This document shows, one piece after another, positions 10,260 through 18,766 of a DNA stretch of 64,000 nt (position 1 is its first letter; each line of letters starts with the position of its first letter). Source of the stretch: Escherichia coli (lineage in GTDB: Bacteria > Pseudomonadota > Gammaproteobacteria > Enterobacterales > Enterobacteriaceae); NCBI RefSeq assembly GCF_044324875.1, contig NZ_CP172185.1, one strand, 5' to 3'. Position numbers and translations under genes: made by a program. The notes beneath the pieces are model-generated. The model was not told the DNA's origin and did no database searches. It saw nothing but the letters and a program-made list of their open reading frames with translations.

Positions 10260-12749
10260 ATGGAGTTCGTCAGAGACTGGCAAAAACCGCGCCCCGCTAT
10301 CGGGCGCGAAGGCTTACCCGTACCTGAAACCGCACTGGATACCATCCTGAAGTGTTACCGCGCAGACGAAGAGCGCGCACTGCACGCTGAAGAGCAGGGT
10401 CATCCGCTTGCGGGCACAACCATCGGTAACGCGATCGACAAGTGGGAAGGCGCACAGGAGCGCCAGGAAGAGGCCATCACGCTCACACAGGAAGCGAGAA
10501 GACACCCGCCCACCCTTATTGAGGAAACCCTCAAAGAGCTGGACACCCTGCCCAAGTGGTTGAGGCTGCCGCTGATTAAGCACCTGAACTTTTTAAGGCG
10601 CAAACAGGAGGACGAACAGCAGAAAGGCAAGCGCGGCAAGGACACCCGCAAATATGAGCGCTTCCTGAAAAACGGCATCCCCGCACGTCTTCGCCGTATT
10701 CGTGAGATTAACGCTCGCTTTGCACCGTTAAGTTTTCAGGCCGCTGCCATGCGCGAGAGTCTGGAAGAACTGATCACACTGCCGAACCTGAGCCGTGAAC
10801 GCATCCAGAAAATAGCCGTACTGCTTGCCAGCGCCGTTAAAATGCATCTTGCCGACGCAATGGACAAGGCCCGCGAAATAACAGGGAACGACAAAGACGA
10901 CAACCTGAACAACTGGCTGATTGCCTACCAGTATATTGGTCGCCGTGTCCTGAAGCTGGGGATCACCCCACCATACTGGAGCGCCCTTGAACTCCGCCCC
11001 GACCGCAGAAGCCCCCCGGACGTGACACTGGTTCCGGGCGCTGTTTTGCGCCTGAACGACGCCGAATGGTGGAATAAAAAACTTCGCCAGATGCACGACG
11101 TCTGGCGTGAGGAACTTTTACGTGCAGCGGGCCTTGTATCCCGCCAGACCTCCGTTTATGTGAGCCGTGAAGCGCTGGCAGACTTCCGCGAAAAACAGGC
11201 CCGTACCCGCGATTTTCTCAAAGCGCACGACGTGGAGAACGAAGACGGCGAACGCATCAGTCTGGAAGATATCTACTACGCCAGTACATCCAACCCGCAT
11301 AACCGCCGCAACGAGATGATGGCGTGCGTTAAGGGAATGGAGCTTATCGCACAGGAACGCGGCGACGTGGCCTTCTTCGTCACGGTCACAGCCCCGTCTC
11401 GTTTTCACAGCGTCACCGACGCAGGCACGCTGAACCCGAAATACAAAGGCGCAACCGTAAAGGACGCCAGCGACTATCTGGTTTATAACTTCTTCGCCTC
11501 CGCCCGCAAACTCATCAAAAAAGAGAAGCGGGGCTGGTACGGCATTCGCACCGTGGAGCCTCACCACGACGGCACGCCCCACTGGCACATGCTGGTATTC
11601 ACAAGCCCTGAGAACGAAGAGCGCATCACGGAAATCATGTGCAATGCCGCCATTCGCGAAGACCGGGCAGAGCTGGGCGACGACATCACCCCGCGCTTCA
11701 AGTGCGAGAAGATAGATCCCGAAAAAGGCACGCCAACCAGCTACATCGCCACCTACATAGGCAAAGGCATTGACGCCGCTGCATTCGGCGACACGGATCC
11801 AAAAACAGGTAAACCGCCCGTTGACCACGAAAGCGGAAAACCTATGGCGGACACCGTGGAAAACGCCGTCGCCTGGGCGCGCCTGCATCGCATTCGCCAG
11901 TTCCAGTTCTTTGGCCTCCCTTCCCGTCAGGTGTGGCGTGAGTTCCGCCGCCTTGCCGGACAAATGGCACGCAACCCGAAGGGGCCGCAGGCACTGACCA
12001 ACCCCAAAGCCGACGCCCTCCTTGTTGCAGCCGATACGGGGTGTTTTGCCAGCTACATCATGCATCAGGGCGGTGTGCTCATTCCCCGTAGTGAATATCT
12101 GGCCCGCACAGCCTACGTCACCGCAGAAGAGCCGAACAATTACAGCGAATTCCCCGAGCGCATTTACGGTATCCGCATGCCGGAACTGGGGGAGGACTTC
12201 ACGTTATGCACCCACCCGGAAGAGTGGAAAATCGTCAGAAAGGAACCGGAACCAGACAACCGCACGGGCGAGGGTTTTGACCTTCAGGGCGGCCCCGCCG
12301 CCCCTTGGACTCGTGGCAATAACTGTCACCCTGACGAAAAAACAACCAACAACAGCACACAAACCGGACAGTCAGAGTGGGCAAAACTGCCCCCCTTACC
12401 CCCATCGTCGGACGGTTTTGTGAGCTGGTTTAAGTCGCTTAAGAGGCCGGACAGGAAAAAACTACAAAGATTGCTCAAAAAACGCACCGAAGAGAGTCGC
12501 CAGAACGCCAGCGGCGGCACCGACACACCCACCGACACCATTAACCTGGGCGTTGTGCTGCCGGAACTGCCGGAAATCGTGCAAGTCCGCCGCGATCTGG
12601 AAGCGCTGGGCGCGGACTTCCCCGAAGCAATGGCCCATTCCGTCTTTATGGGTGCCCGCGTTCGTCTGGGTAACGGTCGCACCGTTCACCGCGACGAGCA
12701 GACCGGGCGCATCACCGTCACCAGTCTGCAACCGGAGGCGAAACCATGA
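10260..12749 (+). CDS. A: Replication initiation protein, P2 gene A family (rolling-circle endonuclease)
   Basis: 829 aa; contains an HUH-type metal-binding motif (HDGTPHWHMLVF) and a downstream tyrosine motif (SYIATYIGKG), as in rolling-circle initiators; position as for P2 A. Confidence 0.85.
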   Translation: MEFVRDWQKPRPAIGREGLPVPETALDTILKCYRADEERALHAEEQGHPLAGTTIGNAIDKWEGAQERQEEAITLTQEARRHPPTLIEETLKELDTLPKWLRLPLIKHLNFLRRKQEDEQQKGKRGKDTRKYERFLKNGIPARLRRIREINARFAPLSFQAAAMRESLEELITLPNLSRERIQKIAVLLASAVKMHLADAMDKAREITGNDKDDNLNNWLIAYQYIGRRVLKLGITPPYWSALELRPDRRSPPDVTLVPGAVLRLNDAEWWNKKLRQMHDVWREELLRAAGLVSRQTSVYVSREALADFREKQARTRDFLKAHDVENEDGERISLEDIYYASTSNPHNRRNEMMACVKGMELIAQERGDVAFFVTVTAPSRFHSVTDAGTLNPKYKGATVKDASDYLVYNFFASARKLIKKEKRGWYGIRTVEPHHDGTPHWHMLVFTSPENEERITEIMCNAAIREDRAELGDDITPRFKCEKIDPEKGTPTSYIATYIGKGIDAAAFGDTDPKTGKPPVDHESGKPMADTVENAVAWARLHRIRQFQFFGLPSRQVWREFRRLAGQMARNPKGPQALTNPKADALLVAADTGCFASYIMHQGGVLIPRSEYLARTAYVTAEEPNNYSEFPERIYGIRMPELGEDFTLCTHPEEWKIVRKEPEPDNRTGEGFDLQGGPAAPWTRGNNCHPDEKTTNNSTQTGQSEWAKLPPLPPSSDGFVSWFKSLKRPDRKKLQRLLKKRTEESRQNASGGTDTPTDTINLGVVLPELPEIVQVRRDLEALGADFPEAMAHSVFMGARVRLGNGRTVHRDEQTGRITVTSLQPEAKP

Positions 12750-13156
12750 ACCGTTATCATTGTGTACTGCCGCGCCACTACTTCGGTCAGATTATGCGCT
12801 CGCGTATTCCGGCGGTCACGCTGCGAAACCTGAGCACGGTACCGCAGCCGGGCGATGAGCTGGAAATCGCCGTAGCAGGCCCTGACCGTTCAGCCAGCTG
12901 CGTGACCGCCGACGTGCTGAACGCCGTGCCCGTAGGTGGTGACTGGCTGGTTGCCATCCGCTTCCGCCAAGACCCGTTCGCACCTGAACCGCTCACCCCC
13001 GCAGGCCGCATCATGCAGAACTGGCGGGATGAAGGCGCGAAGGCGAACTGCGAAAAACTGATTAACAGGATTGCCACGACAAACCGACATGCCGCGCTGG
13101 CGCGCCGGATATACCCCGCAAAACCGACACAACCAACAGGAGTAAAACGCCCATGA
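12746..13156 (+). CDS. Hypothetical protein (136 aa), start overlaps the gene A stop
   Basis: ATGA overlap with A; unknown function. Confidence 0.5.
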   Translation: MNRYHCVLPRHYFGQIMRSRIPAVTLRNLSTVPQPGDELEIAVAGPDRSASCVTADVLNAVPVGGDWLVAIRFRQDPFAPEPLTPAGRIMQNWRDEGAKANCEKLINRIATTNRHAALARRIYPAKPTQPTGVKRP

Positions 13157-13292
13157 AAAGAATCGCCGGAACCCACAGAGACACAAAAAGACACCAAAAG
13201 CAGCAAAGACACATTGAATAAACGAAAACTGGTGATATGATTTGTTCAAAGATGTTATGATTTATTCATAAGTAACCTTTCAGGCTTAAGTT

Positions 13293-13667
13293 ATGAATAA
13301 ACAGGATTTTGGACTTGATACCCTTTTGAGTATGCATGGTTACCAGCATCACATGGATAACGGGTACTGGTGGAAAATTGAGGCTTACCGGGTAAGTCCA
13401 AGTCCGTTCAGACCTCACGGGATACGCTACAATCTGACGTTACATGACCGCTACAATTCGCGTGTGTTTGGTATGGACAACGCACATGGAATAAAACCGC
13501 CAAAGAAGGGAAGATTTACAGGAAAGTTAACTGTTTATGATCATGTGCACCGTACCCCGGTGGATAAAGGTTATCCCTATGAGTTTGTATCCGCAGAACA
13601 ATTGTTATCTGATTTCTTTGATAACGTTGATCGGCTCATTAACGAAGTTACAAAGGGGAAAGCATGA
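13293..13667 (+). CDS. Hypothetical small protein (124 aa), first gene of an overlapping two-gene module in the A-to-Q cargo region
   Basis: ORF with own upstream promoter-like region (direct repeats atgatttgtt / atgatttatt); stop overlaps the next start (ATGA). H/Y/W-rich; no motif I can assign with confidence. Confidence 0.6.
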   Translation: MNKQDFGLDTLLSMHGYQHHMDNGYWWKIEAYRVSPSPFRPHGIRYNLTLHDRYNSRVFGMDNAHGIKPPKKGRFTGKLTVYDHVHRTPVDKGYPYEFVSAEQLLSDFFDNVDRLINEVTKGKA

Positions 13668-14050
13668 AAGCCCGCATCGGGATCATCCCGGAAAAAGTCC
13701 TGCGTCAGCGCCTGATTGAAATTGCCAAGGGGGAGCGGAAACCACACCCCGACGAGCCAAGGGTATGGTTTTCATCCATCAATGCGGCGGGTCAGGCGCT
13801 GAGCAATGAAAATATCTCCCTTCTTCGTCTTATGGATGAGGAGAAACCGCAGACCATGACCGAACTTGCGGAGTTATCCGGCAGAAAACTGAGTAACCTG
13901 TCTGTAACCCTGAAAATGCTGAGCAGCTACGGTTTTGTCAGTCTGGAAAAGAAAGGAAATACCGTACACCCGAAGGCACTTTTTACCGATTTTGAAATCA
14001 TCGTTGATCCGTCCGTCGGTTCAGTACATCGCGCCACCGCCCGCCCCTGA
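13664..14050 (+). CDS. Putative winged-helix DNA-binding protein (128 aa), second gene of the two-gene module
   Basis: Central MarR/winged-helix-like segment (MTELAELSGRKLSNLSVTLKMLSSYGFVSLEKKG); translationally coupled to 13293..13667. Confidence 0.6.
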   Translation: MKARIGIIPEKVLRQRLIEIAKGERKPHPDEPRVWFSSINAAGQALSNENISLLRLMDEEKPQTMTELAELSGRKLSNLSVTLKMLSSYGFVSLEKKGNTVHPKALFTDFEIIVDPSVGSVHRATARP

Positions 14051-14063
14051 AGTGTGCAATAAA

Positions 14064-14090
14064 CAGCCCCGGTCGGGGCTGTTTTTTATT
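14064..14090. terminator. Bidirectional intrinsic terminator between the converging 13664..14050 and 14086..14460 genes
   Basis: cagcccc-ggtc-ggggctg hairpin followed by ttttttatt. Confidence 0.6.
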
Positions 14091-14460
14091 CCAGAATCAG
14101 CTGTTCAGGTGTGCAGCCGTACAGTCTGGCAAGGCGCTCAATATTTGCCCTGCGCGGGCGTTCTGTTCTTTCGAATTCGGACACGGTAGCCTGCCTGATA
14201 CCCAGCGCATCCGCCACCTGCTTTTGCGTCATTCCGCGATAGATTCGCCACGCCGCCTGCATGGTGCAGCCACGTTCCGAGAGGATGTTGACCACCTCGT
14301 TGGGATACAGCGTATCAGGCGATGCACTCGGTTCGTTCTGGACGTCCTCGTAGAGTTCGTCAAGGTCGCTGTCTCCTGCCAGTTTTTCAAACAACGCCAC
14401 TGGCAGAATGACGGATACCCTGTTACCCGCACCGTCAGTAATAAACTGAATCTGACTCAT
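14086..14460 (-). CDS. XRE-family helix-turn-helix protein (124 aa), candidate antitoxin
   Basis: C-terminal HTH_XRE-like segment (MTQKQVADALGIRQATVSEFERTERPRRANIERLARLYG); downstream of and co-oriented with a RelE/ParE-like ORF. Confidence 0.6.
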   Translation of the reverse strand: MSQIQFITDGAGNRVSVILPVALFEKLAGDSDLDELYEDVQNEPSASPDTLYPNEVVNILSERGCTMQAAWRIYRGMTQKQVADALGIRQATVSEFERTERPRRANIERLARLYGCTPEQLILE

Positions 14461-14533
14461 TTGCCCCTCCTGCTAAACATCGGTTTATTTTTTAATTTGC
14501 TGCCGGTGATAAAAAACGGCGGGTCGCCCCGCC

Positions 14534-14806
14534 TTAGTATGTTGTCGAGGTTCTCCGCTGAATACGGAGGATCCTGATAACCACTATCTGCCCTCCCTCA
14601 ATCGTGAACCTGACACGGTAATGATTTACCCTGAGTCTGTACTCCCCGCCCGAGTCAGTGAGCTTTTTAATATCCAGATTCTGGAACTTCGGATAGCCAT
14701 AAAGCGCGTTAACTTTCTCGCGTAAGGATTTCTGATCCCTCGCTGGCAAAACCCGTAAATCTTTGATTGCCCGAGGGGTCCACATGATTTCAGTCGTCAT
14801 AAACAC
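14534..14806 (-). CDS. RelE/ParE-superfamily toxin-like protein (about 88-90 aa; start GTG 14806 or ATG 14800)
   Basis: N-terminal ...WTPRAIKDLRVL... and C-terminal YRLRVNHYRVRF...IVVIRI segments resemble RelE/ParE/HigB-type toxins. Confidence 0.6.
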   Translation of the reverse strand: MFMTTEIMWTPRAIKDLRVLPARDQKSLREKVNALYGYPKFQNLDIKKLTDSGGEYRLRVNHYRVRFTIEGGQIVVIRILRIQRRTSTTY

Positions 14807-14851
14807 ACCGGAAGCAAATTATTAAAGAGCCGTGCCCGCTGGCACACCTTA

Positions 14852-14880
14852 AATATAGGTTTTAACCCCTATATTGTCAA
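14852..14880 (-). promoter_or_regulatory. Sigma70-like promoter (TTGACA-N17-TATATT on minus strand) with an embedded 7-bp inverted repeat operator, upstream of the RelE-like gene
   Basis: Minus-strand ttgaca / 17-bp spacer / tatatt; spacer contains atatagg...cctatat palindrome (plus 14853..14874). Confidence 0.55.
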
Positions 14881-15057
14881 ACAAAATCCCTATATCATGA
14901 AGTAAAAAAGCACCTCCCGCGACCTCCCTTTCCGGTGCACGAAAGTGCACAAATTTGCACAATTTTTTTGAACGACTTTTTGCCCTTCCGGCCCGTGTGG
15001 CGTCTGGATCCGTCGGGGATCCGTGCGTGCACGAAAAAAGGCCTTTTTCTGCGCGCA

Positions 15058-15076
15058 GGTGACGGGGGAACAGCCC
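15058..15076 (+). other. Candidate cos (cohesive end) 19-mer ggtgacgggggaacagccc
   Basis: GC-rich 19-mer in the non-coding region between early/cargo genes and the portal gene; matches 13 of 19 positions of the P2 cos sequence as I recall it (GGCGAGGCGGGGAAAGCAC). Tentative. Confidence 0.3.
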
Positions 15077-15389
15077 GCGTTTCAGGGGGTAAATAGCATT
15101 CCCTGAACGATGTTGCAGTGACACAACAGAATGGCTGTATTTCTCACGCTGAGCGTGAAAAAGACGTAAGGGCTTTTGATTTGATGGGGTGAAAGATAAG
15201 GCCGTCAAAATCGCACTGAGGCAGCGAGAATATGTCGTCAGAGTTGCGGGGTTGCGTAAGCATCCGCCCGGCGATGATGGCTACAGGGCTGGAGATGTTG
15301 TGAAATTATCTGAAGGAATAACCAGCTTGCAGGAGAACCCGGGCAAAGTCAGAATAGCGGCAGGCATCAACTCAAAAGAGGATAATGTC

Positions 15390-15893
15390 ATGAGCCACTT
15401 TAATGATTTATGCCAGATCAATCGTGAAGCTGAAGAAAAACGCGCTGAGGCAGCTCAAATTTTGCGGGATGAAGCGGCAAGGCTGATTGATTTCTATGAA
15501 GAATGGCTGGGGCTTCCATCCATGTACTGGGAAGACGATGATGGCGACCTGCACCGCTACGTGGAGACAGGCTTGCCATGTAAGACAGCGGCGGATTTTA
15601 GTCCTCTTTCAGTCCACAATATCGCATCTGCACCAGACAATATTTTCCGCATGGCCGTACGAACCTGGGTAAAGTCATCTGACAGCAGCTACCCGGTAAG
15701 CGTGGTTATTGCACTTGAATTATATTCAGTAGATGCGGAACGGGTGTCTCTGAGAGTCCGGGTGGAAGACGATATTTCTGTTCGCGTATTTATCAATAAA
15801 CCCAGCGAAGAAGCCTGGGGCGATGTTGTTATGCACATGAAAAAGCACATCGCTAATCACCTGAAAAAGCGAGCGCCATCAGCACTTCGTTAA
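15390..15893 (+). CDS. Hypothetical protein (167 aa from ATG 15390 with AAGAGG ribosome binding site), orphan gene next to the portal gene
   Basis: ORF 15189..15893 with best start at 15390; acidic, no recognisable motif; preceded by about 580 bp without credible coding potential. Confidence 0.55.
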   Translation: MSHFNDLCQINREAEEKRAEAAQILRDEAARLIDFYEEWLGLPSMYWEDDDGDLHRYVETGLPCKTAADFSPLSVHNIASAPDNIFRMAVRTWVKSSDSSYPVSVVIALELYSVDAERVSLRVRVEDDISVRVFINKPSEEAWGDVVMHMKKHIANHLKKRAPSALR

Positions 15894-15908
15894 GCAGAGC
15901 TGGAGAGT

Positions 15909-15933
15909 CGGGGCATAAATTTTTTATGCCCCG
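15909..15933. terminator. Bidirectional hairpin (11-bp stem cggggcataaa / tttatgccccg) between the orphan gene and Q
   Basis: Perfect 11-bp stem, 3-nt loop, A/T tracts on both sides. Confidence 0.6.
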
Positions 15934-15959
15934 GCGAAGCAGCAGACAAGCGAAGCGCG

Positions 15960-17015
15960 TCAGGATATGGGCCGGGTGTCTAACAGTGCGTAAGGGTTAA
16001 AACGGATCACCTCTTCGCCCAGCCAGTCGTTGACGTGTTTCATTGCTTCCATGACGGGCATCAGTTCGTTAATGGCAAACACACGGGCTGCCTTCTCCAC
16101 ATCCCCGAATGACCCCTTCTCACCCGGCATGGCCCCCATCAGCTGAGGTGGCACGCGGTGCACAGCCAGCACGTCATCACGCGATGCGGCCTTGACGTTC
16201 ATGAACTCATCCTTTGCGGTGATTTGCTGAAACGGCAAAATCTGTACGCCATCCTTACCACCTCCCGCCGCGTGGATGAGCAGATTTTTAAACGCCCCGC
16301 CACCACGCGCGCTTTGCAGCGTTTCCCGCAGTTTTTCCATGCTTTCACGGTCAACCTGCGCCGCACCGATGTAGACAATACAGCCCGCGTGTGAGCCGTT
16401 ATCGTAGTAGAGCTTGCGGAAGATATCGGCGGAATGTGACAGGCTGGCAGACAGCAGGCCGCCCAGGTAATCCGGCATCCCGTAAATCTCCTGGTTGATA
16501 TCAGGATTCATCAGGTGGCATATCGTCCCCTCACGAAAGCGGTACTCTTCCTGTCCTTCCTGTATATACCACCATGATTTCATATCGCTGCCACGTCGCA
16601 TGTATTTCGCCAGCGCCCGGCGCAGGGCCAGCGGTTCGCCAAGCATGTTGCGCCGCAGCTCAAGACAGGCATTACCGAACACAAACCAGTCCATCGCCAC
16701 CCCGGCGAACTCCTGGCGGGACAGCAGAGGATGTGGAATATAGCAGCCCAGCAGCACATTACGTTTGAAGCTGAGCGCCGACTGGTGCCAGGACGTCTGG
16801 CGGGCAGCCCGTGCCAGTCCGTACCAGTCAACGGGCGTTTCAAACCACCGCCCGTTGTCGGCGCAGTACATGCTGTCCAGCAGGTCGGCCCCTGACAGCC
16901 GGTAAGGTCCTTCAAACGTGAAGGCACTCAGTGTCGGGTCGCTTCGCAGGGAATCCGCAAGGCTGCCCTGCGCTGCGCGGGCGTTCGTACGTCGTTGTTT
17001 ATTTTTTCTGCTCAT
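15960..17015 (-). CDS. Q: Portal protein, P2 gpQ family
   Basis: 351 aa (P2 Q is about 344 aa as recalled); divergent from the O-N-M-L capsid operon and adjacent to P as in P2. Confidence 0.85.
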   Translation of the reverse strand: MSRKNKQRRTNARAAQGSLADSLRSDPTLSAFTFEGPYRLSGADLLDSMYCADNGRWFETPVDWYGLARAARQTSWHQSALSFKRNVLLGCYIPHPLLSRQEFAGVAMDWFVFGNACLELRRNMLGEPLALRRALAKYMRRGSDMKSWWYIQEGQEEYRFREGTICHLMNPDINQEIYGMPDYLGGLLSASLSHSADIFRKLYYDNGSHAGCIVYIGAAQVDRESMEKLRETLQSARGGGAFKNLLIHAAGGGKDGVQILPFQQITAKDEFMNVKAASRDDVLAVHRVPPQLMGAMPGEKGSFGDVEKAARVFAINELMPVMEAMKHVNDWLGEEVIRFNPYALLDTRPIS

Positions 17016-18766
17016 CAGAACTCCGTAACACTGAAGGGGGCGGCATCATGTTCACCGCCGACAGGTTCGTTGATAACGGCCAGCATGGTGGCCCATGCAA
17101 GATCGCCATGGCTTACGCCTCTTGCGCGATCTGTTTCGTAGGTGATAAATCCGGCCTGCGTTTTTGTTTTGCGTACCGCGTTAAAGGCGCTCACCAGTTC
17201 GCGCTCGCTGCGGTCGTACTCCCACCGCCCGGCGCGCATGAGCTGCAGCATCTTCAGAACCAGCGTGCGCTTTGATGACAGGGTGAAGGTGTAGGGAATG
17301 GCTGCCGGAAAAAAGCGCTTCACAATCTGATACACCGCATCCCCGTGACCGCCGGTTACGTCAATACCGATATGCTCAACGTTATAGCGAAAGGTGAACT
17401 CTTCAATGACCTTCGCCTGCGCCTCAAACTCCAGCCCCTGCACCCGCCGCGTCTCCACGGTGCGAAAACGCCCGCCCGGTACGGCTGGCGGCACCACCAC
17501 GACAACCGCCCCGCTGTCACCGTTCCCGCTACTGCCGTTGGCGTCGTACCCAATCCACACAGGGCGGTTCCCCATCGGACGCGGTGCAAACGGCTTCCAG
17601 TCCGGCCACTCGTCGTATCCGTCAACACCGCAGCCAATCAGGATATTCAGGTTAAATGCCGATTCCCCTTCGCGAGCAAATTCACACATGTAGAGATTGC
17701 GGAACTCGTCTTCAGTGTTATTGCGCCGGATTTTGTCAATGTTGGTTAACGTCCATCCCTGACTGACCACATCTTCCAGCGTCACAATTTGCCGCCAGAT
17801 ATAGTCAGGACAGATAAGGCCGTTATGAAGCGCATTCCAGCTCACATCAAAATGCTGACGTTTATGAGTACGAAGCCCTTCATTCCAGTGATCGCCGTTC
17901 CAGTATGCATACGCCTCATGTGTTTCACTTGATGGCGTGGAAAAATAGGTACACCGCAAACCATCCAGCGTTGCCATAGCAGCAGCCACCTTGCGCAGCT
18001 CTGCGAAACGCCCCGTCCAGAAAAACTCATCAAAATACAGATTCCCTGTGTACGCTTGCGCGGTGGCCGCAGAAGTGCCGAGAAAATGCAGCTCTGCACC
18101 GTTGGAGAGGATGACTTTATCGCCCCCTTTCAGTTCCACATCAACTTCAGATGCAGCCTTCTGAATAATGCTTTTAAACTGGAGCGCCTGACGACGAGAC
18201 GCAGACAAAAAAATCTGGTTACGCTGGTAAGGTTGTGCCACATCGTCACGCAGCGCCATCAGCAGCGCTTCCTGCGCAAAATACCAGGTCGCCCCAATCT
18301 GGCGGGATTTCAGGATCATCCTGTCAGTAATTCCGGCACGCTCACAGGCACCGATAGCATCAAGCCATTTGCGCTGGTGTCCGGCCAGCCTGTCGGTAAT
18401 TTTTTCCCGCAGCGCCGCGATCTGTTCCGGCGTGAAATGATTTTTGCGTTTTTTCGCCCGGCCTTTCTTTCCTGTTGCCGTCTCATCCGGCAGACCGTCA
18501 TGCAGCTTTTTAAGCTGACGGGTCAGCAAATCAATTTCCTTAAAGTCCCCGCCTGTTTTATTCTGTTTTTCCGTGAGCTGAATGAGTCGCGCATCCATGG
18601 ACTGCGTGACACGCTGAACCGGGGGCGTCTCATCCCACTGGTCGCGTTTTTTCCACGAATGGATCGTGTTCTGGTTGATACCCATAAGGCGGCAAATTTC
18701 CGCAACAGGGTAACCCTGCCAGTACAGCTGGCGTGCCCGCTGGCGAACAAATGTATCCTGAATCAT
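17015..18766 (-). CDS. P: Terminase large (ATPase) subunit, P2 gpP family
   Basis: 583 aa; N-terminal HTH-like segment and ATPase-sized body; Q-P pair on the strand opposite to the capsid operon. Confidence 0.85.
   Translation of the reverse strand: MIQDTFVRQRARQLYWQGYPVAEICRLMGINQNTIHSWKKRDQWDETPPVQRVTQSMDARLIQLTEKQNKTGGDFKEIDLLTRQLKKLHDGLPDETATGKKGRAKKRKNHFTPEQIAALREKITDRLAGHQRKWLDAIGACERAGITDRMILKSRQIGATWYFAQEALLMALRDDVAQPYQRNQIFLSASRRQALQFKSIIQKAASEVDVELKGGDKVILSNGAELHFLGTSAATAQAYTGNLYFDEFFWTGRFAELRKVAAAMATLDGLRCTYFSTPSSETHEAYAYWNGDHWNEGLRTHKRQHFDVSWNALHNGLICPDYIWRQIVTLEDVVSQGWTLTNIDKIRRNNTEDEFRNLYMCEFAREGESAFNLNILIGCGVDGYDEWPDWKPFAPRPMGNRPVWIGYDANGSSGNGDSGAVVVVVPPAVPGGRFRTVETRRVQGLEFEAQAKVIEEFTFRYNVEHIGIDVTGGHGDAVYQIVKRFFPAAIPYTFTLSSKRTLVLKMLQLMRAGRWEYDRSERELVSAFNAVRKTKTQAGFITYETDRARGVSHGDLAWATMLAVINEPVGGEHDAAPFSVTEF

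What the first reader, a model, noticed from the sequence alone, without database searches (positions are those of the whole stretch)
13157..14090. Overlapping two-gene module: uncharacterised 124-aa protein plus 128-aa winged-helix DNA-binding protein
Two translationally coupled genes (ATGA overlap) with their own promoter region containing direct repeats and a strong terminator. Small protein plus DNA-binding partner is the architecture of type II TA and small two-component defence modules. I have a vague recollection of a TA pairing of this shape (a DUF-type small toxin with a small winged-helix partner) but cannot confirm it from sequence. This is the best candidate in the window for an undescribed system.
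Basis: inference. Interest (0 to 1): 0.7.

Follow-up and report, generated by a model that had tools for sequence, protein, structure and literature searches.

The report
TumE toxin–antitoxin pair in P2 prophage
The two overlapping genes are a member of the TumE toxin–antitoxin family described in 2023, carried as cargo in the variable region of a P2-like prophage and partnered with a DNA-binding protein that probably shuts off its own promoter; it is a real but ordinary module of a known kind.

Summary
Genes at 13293-13667 (124 aa) and 13664-14050 (128 aa) overlap by ATGA. Upstream are 16-nt direct repeats, and a strong terminator follows.

The system is not undescribed. RefSeq names the identical proteins "toxin-antitoxin system TumE family protein" and "HVO_A0114 family putative DNA-binding protein". 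TumE (DUF6516/PF20126) is a translation-inhibiting toxin validated in 2023 (PMC10584680).

The query itself misses the Pfam and NCBIfam models. Its 50-87% identical homologues hit PF20126, and its predicted fold matches the published description.

In 83 of 83 independently sampled loci from other species, a homologue of the winged-helix gene directly follows TumE. In 76 of 84 loci (those 83 plus the window) a 17-bp palindrome overlaps the -10 promoter element; here it is TTATGA-N5-TCATAA at 13255-13271. That fits an autorepressing antitoxin.

Three E. coli prophages keep the winged-helix gene but have lost tumE. The reverse was never seen.

The pair sits between the replication gene (gpA) and the portal gene (gpQ) of a P2-like prophage, a known anti-phage defence hotspot. 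No defence role is shown.

This toxin-first pairing with a winged-helix partner has not been tested experimentally. Verdict: new member of a known kind, modest interest.

The parts
13214..13241 (+). Promoter-like site P1: TTGAAT, 16-nt spacer, TATGAT, with TG before the -10
   Evidence: Consensus scan, 9 of 12 matches plus TG. This is a consensus match only.
13232..13261 (+). Promoter-like site P2: GTGATA, 18-nt spacer, TATGAT, with an extended -10 (TGTTATGAT). Its -10 hexamer is the left arm of the palindrome.
   Evidence: In 47% of 83 related loci a -35 with at least 4 of 6 matches lies 16-18 nt upstream of the palindrome's TAT, against 12% of control positions.
13233..13268 (+). Two 16-nt direct repeats (13233-13248 and 13253-13268), 14 of 16 identical, 20 nt apart
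   Evidence: the repeat finder family D1.
13255..13271 (+). Predicted operator: the 17-bp palindrome TTATGA-TTTAT-TCATAA
   Evidence: The same dyad, xTATxx-N5-xxATAx with at most 1 mismatch between arms, lies upstream of tumE in 76 of 84 loci against 61 of 2520 control windows. It occurs in two classes that change symmetrically in both arms. Binding by the protein is inferred, not shown.
13293..13667 (+). tumE: 124-aa TumE/DUF6516-family protein, the putative translation-inhibiting toxin
   Evidence: RefSeq name. Homologues carry PF20126. AF2 model has pLDDT 89 with a helix / beta-sheet / helix layout. AFDB matches are DUF6516 or uncharacterised proteins only. Toxicity was not tested.
13664..14050 (+). 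128-aa HVO_A0114-family winged-helix protein, the putative TumA-type antitoxin and autorepressor
   Evidence: Pfam PF25212 E=3.8e-16. A homologue lies immediately downstream of TumE in 83 of 83 loci. Structural neighbours are ArsR/SmtB/MarR repressors.
14061..14090 (+). Intrinsic terminator (stem 14061-14084 plus T-run), shared tail-to-tail with the convergent gene that ends at 14086
   Evidence: z = -3.5.

Best explanation
This is a type II toxin-antitoxin module of the TumE-TumA superfamily in toxin-first order. It is carried as horizontally acquired cargo in the variable region between the replication gene (gpA) and the portal gene (gpQ) of a P2-like prophage of E. coli.

Gene 1 encodes a TumE (DUF6516) protein. 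By homology to validated family members, it arrests growth by inhibiting translation. A conserved His/Asp/Arg cluster (PHG, H51, R57, DNAH, DHxH) suggests a hydrolase or nuclease activity, but this is unproven.

Gene 2 is translationally coupled to gene 1 and has a much stronger ribosome-binding site. It encodes an ArsR/MarR-like winged-helix protein that I infer has two functions:
- It neutralises TumE by forming a complex with it.
- As a dimer, it binds the 17-bp palindrome TTATGA-N5-TCATAA, which overlaps the -10 element, and so represses the operon.

Shown here: family membership by homology and fold, strict gene linkage, a conserved operator, and the asymmetry of loss. Inferred: toxicity, neutralisation, DNA binding, and any benefit to the prophage (stabilisation of the cargo, or abortive infection against competing phages).
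For: Identity and family:
- RefSeq names the identical proteins TumE family and HVO_A0114 family.
- Nearly all of the 120 listed homologue clusters carry PF20126 in the precomputed Pfam annotation.
- 59 of the 119 sequences in the alignment (the query plus 118 homologues) hit the Pfam TumE model, best E 9e-11.
- The AF2 model (pLDDT 89, pTM 0.82) has an N-terminal helix, an antiparallel sheet and a long C-terminal helix, as published for TumE.
- There are 135 AFDB50 matches at E<=1e-3. All 50 listed are uncharacterised or DUF6516 proteins apart from two generically named entries; there is no PDB match, as the paper also reported.
- Six TumE toxins were toxic in E. coli and were neutralised by their partners. 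One of them was assayed by metabolic labelling and reduced 35S-methionine incorporation (PMC10584680).

Linkage to the partner:
- In 83 of 83 loci chosen only by a TumE match, a homologue of the winged-helix protein follows on the same strand. 43 of 82 scored gene junctions have the 4-nt overlap.
- The pairing still holds at 41%/41% identity on an IncR plasmid.
- Pairwise identities of the two proteins correlate with r=0.85.

Operator:
- The dyad operator is present in 76 of 84 loci against 2.4% of control windows. It has symmetric G-class and C-class variants and overlaps the -10.

Interaction and loss pattern:
- A fused model built on a paired alignment gave pTM 0.74 despite a disordered 25-residue linker.
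- Asymmetry of loss: three E. coli prophages and V. parahaemolyticus keep the winged-helix gene without tumE. The reverse was not seen.
Against: - The query itself gives no hit to Pfam TumE even at E<=10, and none to NCBIfam, so membership rests on transitive homology and fold.
- The validated pairs all belong to subcluster 1a. Their antitoxins are small (synthetic constructs of 289-388 bp), and the paper describes a cluster-1 partner as a RelB-like remote homologue and places TumE downstream of its partner in cluster 1. This partner type and gene order have never been tested.
- The fused-chain pTM is only an indirect sign of an interface. I could not see PAE or contacts.
- The link between recognition-helix residue 81 and operator class is confounded by phylogeny.
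- No toxicity, binding or phage data exist for this pair.
Confidence: 0.75

Rival explanations
1. The pair is primarily an anti-phage abortive-infection system. TumE is released or activated when a competing phage infects the lysogen, and it kills or arrests the cell. This overlaps with the toxin-antitoxin reading but makes defence the selected function.
For: The pair lies between gpA (10260-12749) and the portal gene (15960-17015, minus strand) of a P2-like prophage. Rousset et al. 2022 showed this locus to be a hotspot of anti-phage systems (PMC9122126). That paper's inventory lists the arrangement containing the identical winged-helix protein WP_029400441. A second allele (about 80% / 82% identity) sits in the same hotspot of other P2-like prophages. 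GC content drops to 0.46-0.52 across the hotspot, against 0.55-0.64 in the flanking phage genes.
Against: TumE has no match to any PADLOC defence model, and the papers searched contain no defence data. None of the 83 loci from other species has P2 gpA or portal genes within 5 kb, so most copies are outside prophage hotspots. In Serratia the flanking genes shown are ordinary chromosomal genes. No TumE homologue was found in 50,697 deposited phage genomes. The hotspot arrangement was catalogued but is not among the systems the text reports as tested.
Confidence: 0.3
2. The pair is not a toxin-antitoxin system. It is a small autoregulated operon in which the winged-helix protein is just the repressor of a non-toxic enzyme or binding protein of unknown function.
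For: The operator evidence shows regulation only, not neutralisation. This subfamily lies at the edge of the Pfam model, and its partner type is unlike the validated TumA proteins.
Against: Strict 83 of 83 linkage, tight translational coupling, occurrence in unrelated and often mobile contexts, and one-sided loss (toxin gene lost, partner kept) are typical of toxin-antitoxin modules rather than metabolic operons. All six TumE toxins tested by Durairaj et al. were toxic.
Confidence: 0.12
3. The module is an inactive remnant in this prophage: the genes are intact but no longer functional or expressed.
For: The module is rare: 6 of 5,426 complete E. coli genomes carry it. In 3 further genomes tumE has already been deleted.
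Against: Both ORFs are full length. The query carries all 14 residues that are invariant across the 119-sequence alignment. The operator matches the consensus at 12 of 12 arm positions. The six copies are 99.8-100% identical.
Confidence: 0.08

Closest known systems
TumE-TumA toxin-antitoxin superfamily (DUF6516 / Pfam PF20126; Durairaj et al., Nature 2023, PMC10584680)
   Same: The toxin belongs to the same protein family, by homology and by predicted fold (two helices packed against an antiparallel sheet, no relative in the PDB). It is a bicistronic, overlapping two-gene module. The partner is predicted to bind DNA. The paper itself states that TumE is neutralised by diverse, unrelated antitoxins in different subclusters.
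   Different: The six validated pairs are from subcluster 1a. Their antitoxins are small, and the paper describes a RelB-like partner and a partner-first gene order for cluster 1. Here the toxin gene comes first and the partner is a 128-aa HVO_A0114 winged-helix protein. The query sequence is too divergent to hit the Pfam model directly. I could not tell which of the paper's seven subclusters it belongs to.
Toxin-first type II modules with an HTH antitoxin, such as HigB-HigA and MqsR-MqsA (from general knowledge)
   Same: The toxin gene is upstream, the DNA-binding antitoxin is downstream and coupled to it, and a palindromic operator overlaps the promoter.
   Different: The toxin and antitoxin folds are unrelated to these systems. 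The window carries a separate RelE-family toxin with an HTH partner next door, at 14086-14806.
ArsR/SmtB and MarR-type dimeric winged-helix repressors
   Same: These are the best structural neighbours of the partner protein. The predicted binding site is a 17-bp dyad with half-sites about one helical turn apart.
   Different: The partner has an extra N-terminal strand-helix-strand and a conserved EPKVWF motif. No metal-sensing or ligand-sensing function is implied. It belongs to the separate Pfam family HVO_A0114 (PF25212).
Cargo of the P2 gpA-gpQ hotspot (old, tin and other defence systems; Rousset et al. 2022, PMC9122126)
   Same: It occupies the same position in a P2-like prophage and has the same low-GC cargo character.
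   Different: It has no homology to any of those systems or to any PADLOC model, and no defence phenotype is known.

Membership tests
TumE toxin family (Pfam PF20126 / DUF6516) | Direct match of the protein to the family profile HMM | tested here: not met
   No Pfam hit even at E<=10, and no NCBIfam hit (part A).
TumE toxin family (Pfam PF20126 / DUF6516) | Homology to proteins that are members of the family (transitive) | tested here: met
   Homologues at 50-87% identity, E 1e-34 to 1e-72, almost all carry PF20126 in the precomputed annotation. 59 of the 119 aligned sequences hit 'Toxin TumE' at E<=1e-3. RefSeq names the identical protein as TumE family.
TumE toxin family (Pfam PF20126 / DUF6516) | Alpha+beta fold: two helices packed against an antiparallel sheet of about seven strands, with no confident PDB relative | tested here: met
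   AF2 model with pLDDT 89: H6-13, strands 18-20, 26-33, 44-51, 57-62 and 84-86 plus short bridges, then H101-123. No PDB match. AFDB matches are DUF6516 or uncharacterised proteins, with TM-scores of 0.7-0.94 among the 50 listed.
TumE toxin family (Pfam PF20126 / DUF6516) | Toxic on expression, through inhibition of translation | not testable with these tools
   Known only for family members from other species (PMC10584680).
Type II toxin-antitoxin module | Conserved two-gene operon in which the toxin is never found without its partner | tested here: met
   83 of 83 loci selected by TumE alone have the winged-helix gene immediately downstream. Orphan winged-helix genes exist.
Type II toxin-antitoxin module | Autoregulation through an operator in the promoter | tested here: inconclusive
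   A conserved 17-bp dyad overlaps the -10 in 76 of 84 loci against 2.4% of controls. The site is shown; binding and repression are not.
Type II toxin-antitoxin module | Antitoxin neutralises the toxin by direct complex formation | tested here: inconclusive
   The fused-chain AF2 model with a paired alignment gave pTM 0.74 and pLDDT 82, and pairwise identities of the two proteins co-vary with r=0.85. No interface or PAE information was available.
HVO_A0114 family (Pfam PF25212) winged-helix proteins | Match to the family profile and a winged-helix fold | tested here: met
   PF25212 E=3.8e-16 over residues 30-105. The model shows three helices followed by a beta-hairpin wing. ArsR/SmtB/MarR structures are the neighbours.
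Known anti-phage defence systems (PADLOC-DB 2.0) | Match of either protein to a defence-system model, other than a generic HTH match | tested here: not met
   TumE has 0 families. The winged-helix protein gives only weak wHTH-domain matches to CasR/Csa3-type regulators.

The most novel reading that the evidence does not exclude
The TumE / winged-helix pair is selected in the P2 gpA-gpQ hotspot because it acts as an abortive-infection defence. Infection by a competing phage would remove or titrate the winged-helix antitoxin, for example through host transcription shut-off, and free TumE to stop translation. That would make it the first TumE-family module with an anti-phage phenotype, and the first validated TumE pair with a winged-helix antitoxin.
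Probability: 0.25. Interest if true: 0.5.

Novelty: new member of a known kind. Interest (0 to 1): 0.3.

Why it matters
The finding adds little that is conceptually new, because the family is published and the genes are already named in RefSeq.

Three modest points go beyond the annotation:
- The toxin-first arrangement with an HVO_A0114 winged-helix partner is strictly conserved: 83 of 83 sampled loci, drawn from at least 459 relatives found in a scan of 100,044 species genomes. It has not been validated experimentally.
- There is a concrete, testable operator, TTATGA/TTATCA-N5-TCATAA/TGATAA, overlapping the -10. Its symmetric changes between clades come with a candidate specificity residue in the recognition helix (V/T/A against R at position 81).
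- The module is rare cargo of the P2 defence hotspot, which makes it a reasonable candidate for a phage-challenge test.

The result also exposes a sensitivity gap: the Pfam TumE and NCBIfam models miss this protein outright.

Tried and rejected
- **Leader hairpin.** The perfect 11-nt inverted repeat (13261-13271 / 13291-13301) covers the tumE start codon and could form a leader hairpin that controls toxin translation. The fold (-12.9 kcal/mol) is no better than shuffles (z = -0.46), so I dropped the idea.
- **A recurring third component.** Genes of about 290 aa lie next to the module in Yersinia, Shewanella and Vibrio loci. Pairwise BLASTP shows they are unrelated.
- **Alternative toxin in the tumE-less strains.** The 193-aa gene that replaces tumE in three E. 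coli strains has no PADLOC or PHROG match. A terminator-like hairpin and a remnant of the tumE 3' end separate it from the winged-helix gene. Replacement that leaves an orphan partner gene is the simpler reading.
- **Non-coding RNA antitoxin.** No Rfam match in 12500-16000 at E<=1.
- **Solved structure for TumE.** None found by sequence profile or by Foldseek.
- **Direct comparison with the six validated TumE proteins.** The supplement gives accession numbers only, no sequences, so I could not assign the paper's subcluster. The text does not mention winged-helix partners.
- **Integrase association.** Only 7 of 83 loci showed a tyrosine-integrase match with my three queries. The search was insensitive, so I draw no conclusion from it.
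- **Follow-up literature.** I found no papers on TumE function or on HVO_A0114.

Full report
**1. What is in the sequence**

They overlap by ATGA, and a strong Shine-Dalgarno sequence (AAGGGGA) for the second gene lies inside the end of the first.

The 136-nt region upstream contains:
- two 16-nt direct repeats 20 nt apart, at 13233 and 13253, 14 of 16 identical;
- an 11-nt perfect inverted repeat, 13261-13271 / 13291-13301;
- two promoter-like sites with an extended -10.

The terminator at 14061-14084 plus its T-run is strong (z = -3.5). It is shared tail-to-tail with a convergent gene.

**2. Identity of the proteins**

The 934-nt region is 99.8-100% identical in six of 5,426 complete E. coli genomes. 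There RefSeq names the proteins "toxin-antitoxin system TumE family protein" or "DUF6516 family protein" (WP_029490435.1), and "HVO_A0114 family putative DNA-binding protein" or "transcriptional regulator" (WP_029400441.1).

TumE-TumA was defined by Durairaj et al. (Nature 2023, PMC10584680). DUF6516 proteins from six gammaproteobacteria were toxic in E. coli and were neutralised by their adjacent partners. One of them, the A. tepidum toxin, lowered 35S-methionine incorporation. An RNase activity was proposed but not proven.

The window protein gives no hit to Pfam or NCBIfam directly. However:
- its homologues at 50-87% identity nearly all carry PF20126;
- 59 of the 119 aligned sequences hit Pfam "Toxin TumE" when scanned individually.

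An AlphaFold2 model built on that alignment is confident (pLDDT 89, pTM 0.82). It shows an N-terminal helix, an antiparallel sheet and a long C-terminal helix, as published for TumE. It has no PDB relative by sequence or fold. It has 135 AFDB50 matches at E<=1e-3, and the 50 listed are almost all uncharacterised or DUF6516 proteins.

A profile search finds 1,033 50%-identity clusters at E<=1e-3 among 1.84 billion representatives.

Invariant or near-invariant residues form a His/Asp/Arg-rich set: P41-H42-G43, H51, R57, D62-N63-A64-H65, D83-H84-x-H86. This set is retained at 41% identity. It is compatible with a hydrolase site but proves nothing.

The second protein matches Pfam HVO_A0114 (E 3.8e-16) and weakly MarR. 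Its model is a winged helix with an extra N-terminal strand-helix-strand. Its nearest solved structures are ArsR/SmtB/CzrA/MarR repressors.

**3. Linkage of the two genes**

A scan of 100,044 species genomes with patterns from the TumE alignment found at least 459 relatives, and 80 loci were kept. Three earlier loci bring the total to 83.

- In 83 of 83, a homologue of the winged-helix protein begins within 0-47 nt of the end of the TumE match, on the same strand.
- 43 of 82 scored gene junctions have the same 4-nt overlap.
- The selection used TumE only, so this is an unbiased test of linkage.
- The pairing persists at 41%/41% identity on an IncR plasmid.
- Pairwise identities of the two proteins correlate with r = 0.85.

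The genomic contexts are unrelated to one another:
- next to integrases in Shewanella and Legionella;
- among ordinary chromosomal genes in Yersinia and Serratia;
- on 31 plasmids;
- none in 50,697 phage records.

None of the 83 loci has P2 gpA or portal genes nearby.

**4. A conserved operator**

Upstream of tumE, 76 of 84 loci carry a 17-bp dyad, xTATxx-N5-xxATAx, with at most one mismatch between arms. Only 61 of 2,520 control windows do. The median position is 33 nt before the start codon.

In the window it is TTATGA-TTTAT-TCATAA at 13255-13271, a 12 of 12 match to the enterobacterial consensus.

There are two classes: TTATGA...TCATAA (33 loci) and TTATCA...TGATAA (40 loci). The change is the same in both arms, as expected for a site read by a symmetric dimer.

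The left arm doubles as the -10 hexamer (TATGAT or TATCAT). A -35 with at least 4 of 6 matches lies 16-18 nt upstream in 47% of loci, against 12% of controls.

Residue 81 of the partner lies in the predicted recognition helix (residues 76-88). It is V, T or A in the G class and invariantly R in the C class. This is suggestive, but it is confounded by phylogeny, since several other columns separate the same two clades.

I infer autorepression by promoter occlusion. The binding itself is not shown.

**5. Evidence bearing on neutralisation**

A single-chain model of TumE-(GGGGS)5-partner, built on a 42-row paired alignment, gave pTM 0.74 and pLDDT 82, with only the linker disordered. That value is higher than I would expect for two independently placed domains. 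It is an indirect indication only, because I could not inspect the interface.

More telling is the asymmetry of loss. In three other E. coli P2-like prophages the winged-helix gene (92-97% nt identity) is retained together with the last ~65 nt of tumE. The rest of tumE and its promoter have been replaced by unrelated genes that end in a terminator-like hairpin. V. parahaemolyticus carries an orphan winged-helix gene. A TumE gene without the partner was never seen.

**6. Genomic setting**

The module lies in a P2-like prophage, between the replication endonuclease gene gpA (10260-12749) plus a conserved 136-aa ORF on one side, and the portal and terminase genes (15960-18766, minus strand) on the other.

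This gpA-gpQ interval is the P2 hotspot of anti-phage systems described by Rousset et al. 2022 (PMC9122126). That paper's inventory lists an arrangement containing the identical WP_029400441 as "hypothetical". The text does not report it among the systems tested.

GC content falls to 0.46-0.52 across 13000-15800, against 0.55-0.64 in the flanking phage genes. A second allele (about 80% / 82% identity) occupies the same hotspot in other prophages.

TumE matches no PADLOC model. A defence role is therefore plausible from position alone and is otherwise unsupported.

**7. Comparison with what is known, and verdict**

The pair works like, and by homology belongs to, the TumE-TumA superfamily. It differs from the validated subcluster 1a pairs in two ways:
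- gene order: here the toxin gene comes first, while the paper places TumE downstream of its partner in cluster 1;
- antitoxin type: here a 128-aa winged-helix protein, while the validated antitoxins are small and the cluster-1 partner is described as RelB-like.

The paper already anticipates diverse antitoxins. I could not assign its subcluster.

Its hope of an undescribed system was not borne out. I rate this as a new member of a known kind with modest interest. The value added is the strict linkage statistics, the operator prediction and the hotspot location.

Noticed in passing
window 14086-14806 (minus strand): A second toxin-antitoxin-like pair lies directly next door and converges on the same terminator. 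It consists of a RelE/StbE-family toxin (14534-14806; TIGR02385 E 1e-4, below the curated cut-off; RefSeq 'RelE family toxin') followed by a 124-aa HTH protein (14086-14460). This is a HigB/HigA-like order. The hotspot therefore carries two toxin-first modules back to back.
   Followed up: partly
window 15189-15893 (+) and 12746-13156 (+): Two further ORFs of unknown function lie in or at the edge of the hotspot. The 234-aa ORF matches phrog_5091 (E 3.5e-52) and is annotated shorter in RefSeq. The 136-aa ORF after gpA matches phrog_14984 (E 3.9e-40). Neither has a PADLOC or NCBIfam match.
   Followed up: partly
L002 3123-4449 and L093 2737-3949 (E. coli Br_112_kylling and 24A16CRGN010): In three E. 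coli P2-like prophages tumE and its promoter are replaced by a small ORF plus a 193-aa ORF with no family match. A terminator-like hairpin follows, then the last ~65 nt of tumE and an intact winged-helix gene. This looks like a cargo-swap scar that leaves an orphan antitoxin gene.
   Followed up: partly
window 13293-13667: The Pfam TumE (PF20126) and NCBIfam models fail to detect this protein at all (no hit at E<=10), although RefSeq names it TumE family. Only 59 of the 119 aligned sequences (the query and its close homologues) hit the model. The current profile under-covers this enterobacterial branch.
   Followed up: yes
PMC9122126, supplementary file 4: In Rousset et al.'s HHpred table, the DUF2290 protein of the validated 'Helicase+DUF2290' anti-phage system has a weak hit to DUF6516 (probability 87.8, E 2.9, over residues 74-185). 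This hints at a remote link between the TumE fold and a known defence effector. PADLOC models did not match TumE here.
   Followed up: no
L091 2175-3237 (Enterobacter hormaechei IncR plasmid pCAV1668-85): A distant variant of the module (41%/41% identity) forms a run of overlapping genes: a 105-aa hypothetical protein, TumE, the winged-helix protein, then a large recombinase. It lies next to the conjugation genes. The role of the extra upstream gene is unknown.
   Followed up: partly
L094 1714-2510 (E. coli P2-like prophage, second allele): The other P2-hotspot allele of the module is preceded by small genes with weak MarR_2 and SSB Pfam hits. This is different accessory cargo in the same hotspot.
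   Followed up: no
window 13515-13544 (+): A promoter-like site (TTTACA, 18-nt spacer, GATCAT; 9 of 12 matches) lies inside tumE. It could give antitoxin-only transcripts, as in some toxin-first modules. This is a consensus match only, and I did not check conservation.
   Followed up: no
window 13187-13212 (+): Two copies of AAAGACAC, 18 nt apart, lie in an A-rich stretch just after the stop codon of the 136-aa ORF. Their significance is unknown and they may be chance.
   Followed up: no
L097 3001-3387 (Vibrio parahaemolyticus): An orphan HVO_A0114 winged-helix gene (51% identical to the window protein) has no TumE gene and lies next to a tyrosine integrase. The index lists it in 78 blocks of the sequence collection. 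No obvious dyad operator lies upstream.
   Followed up: partly
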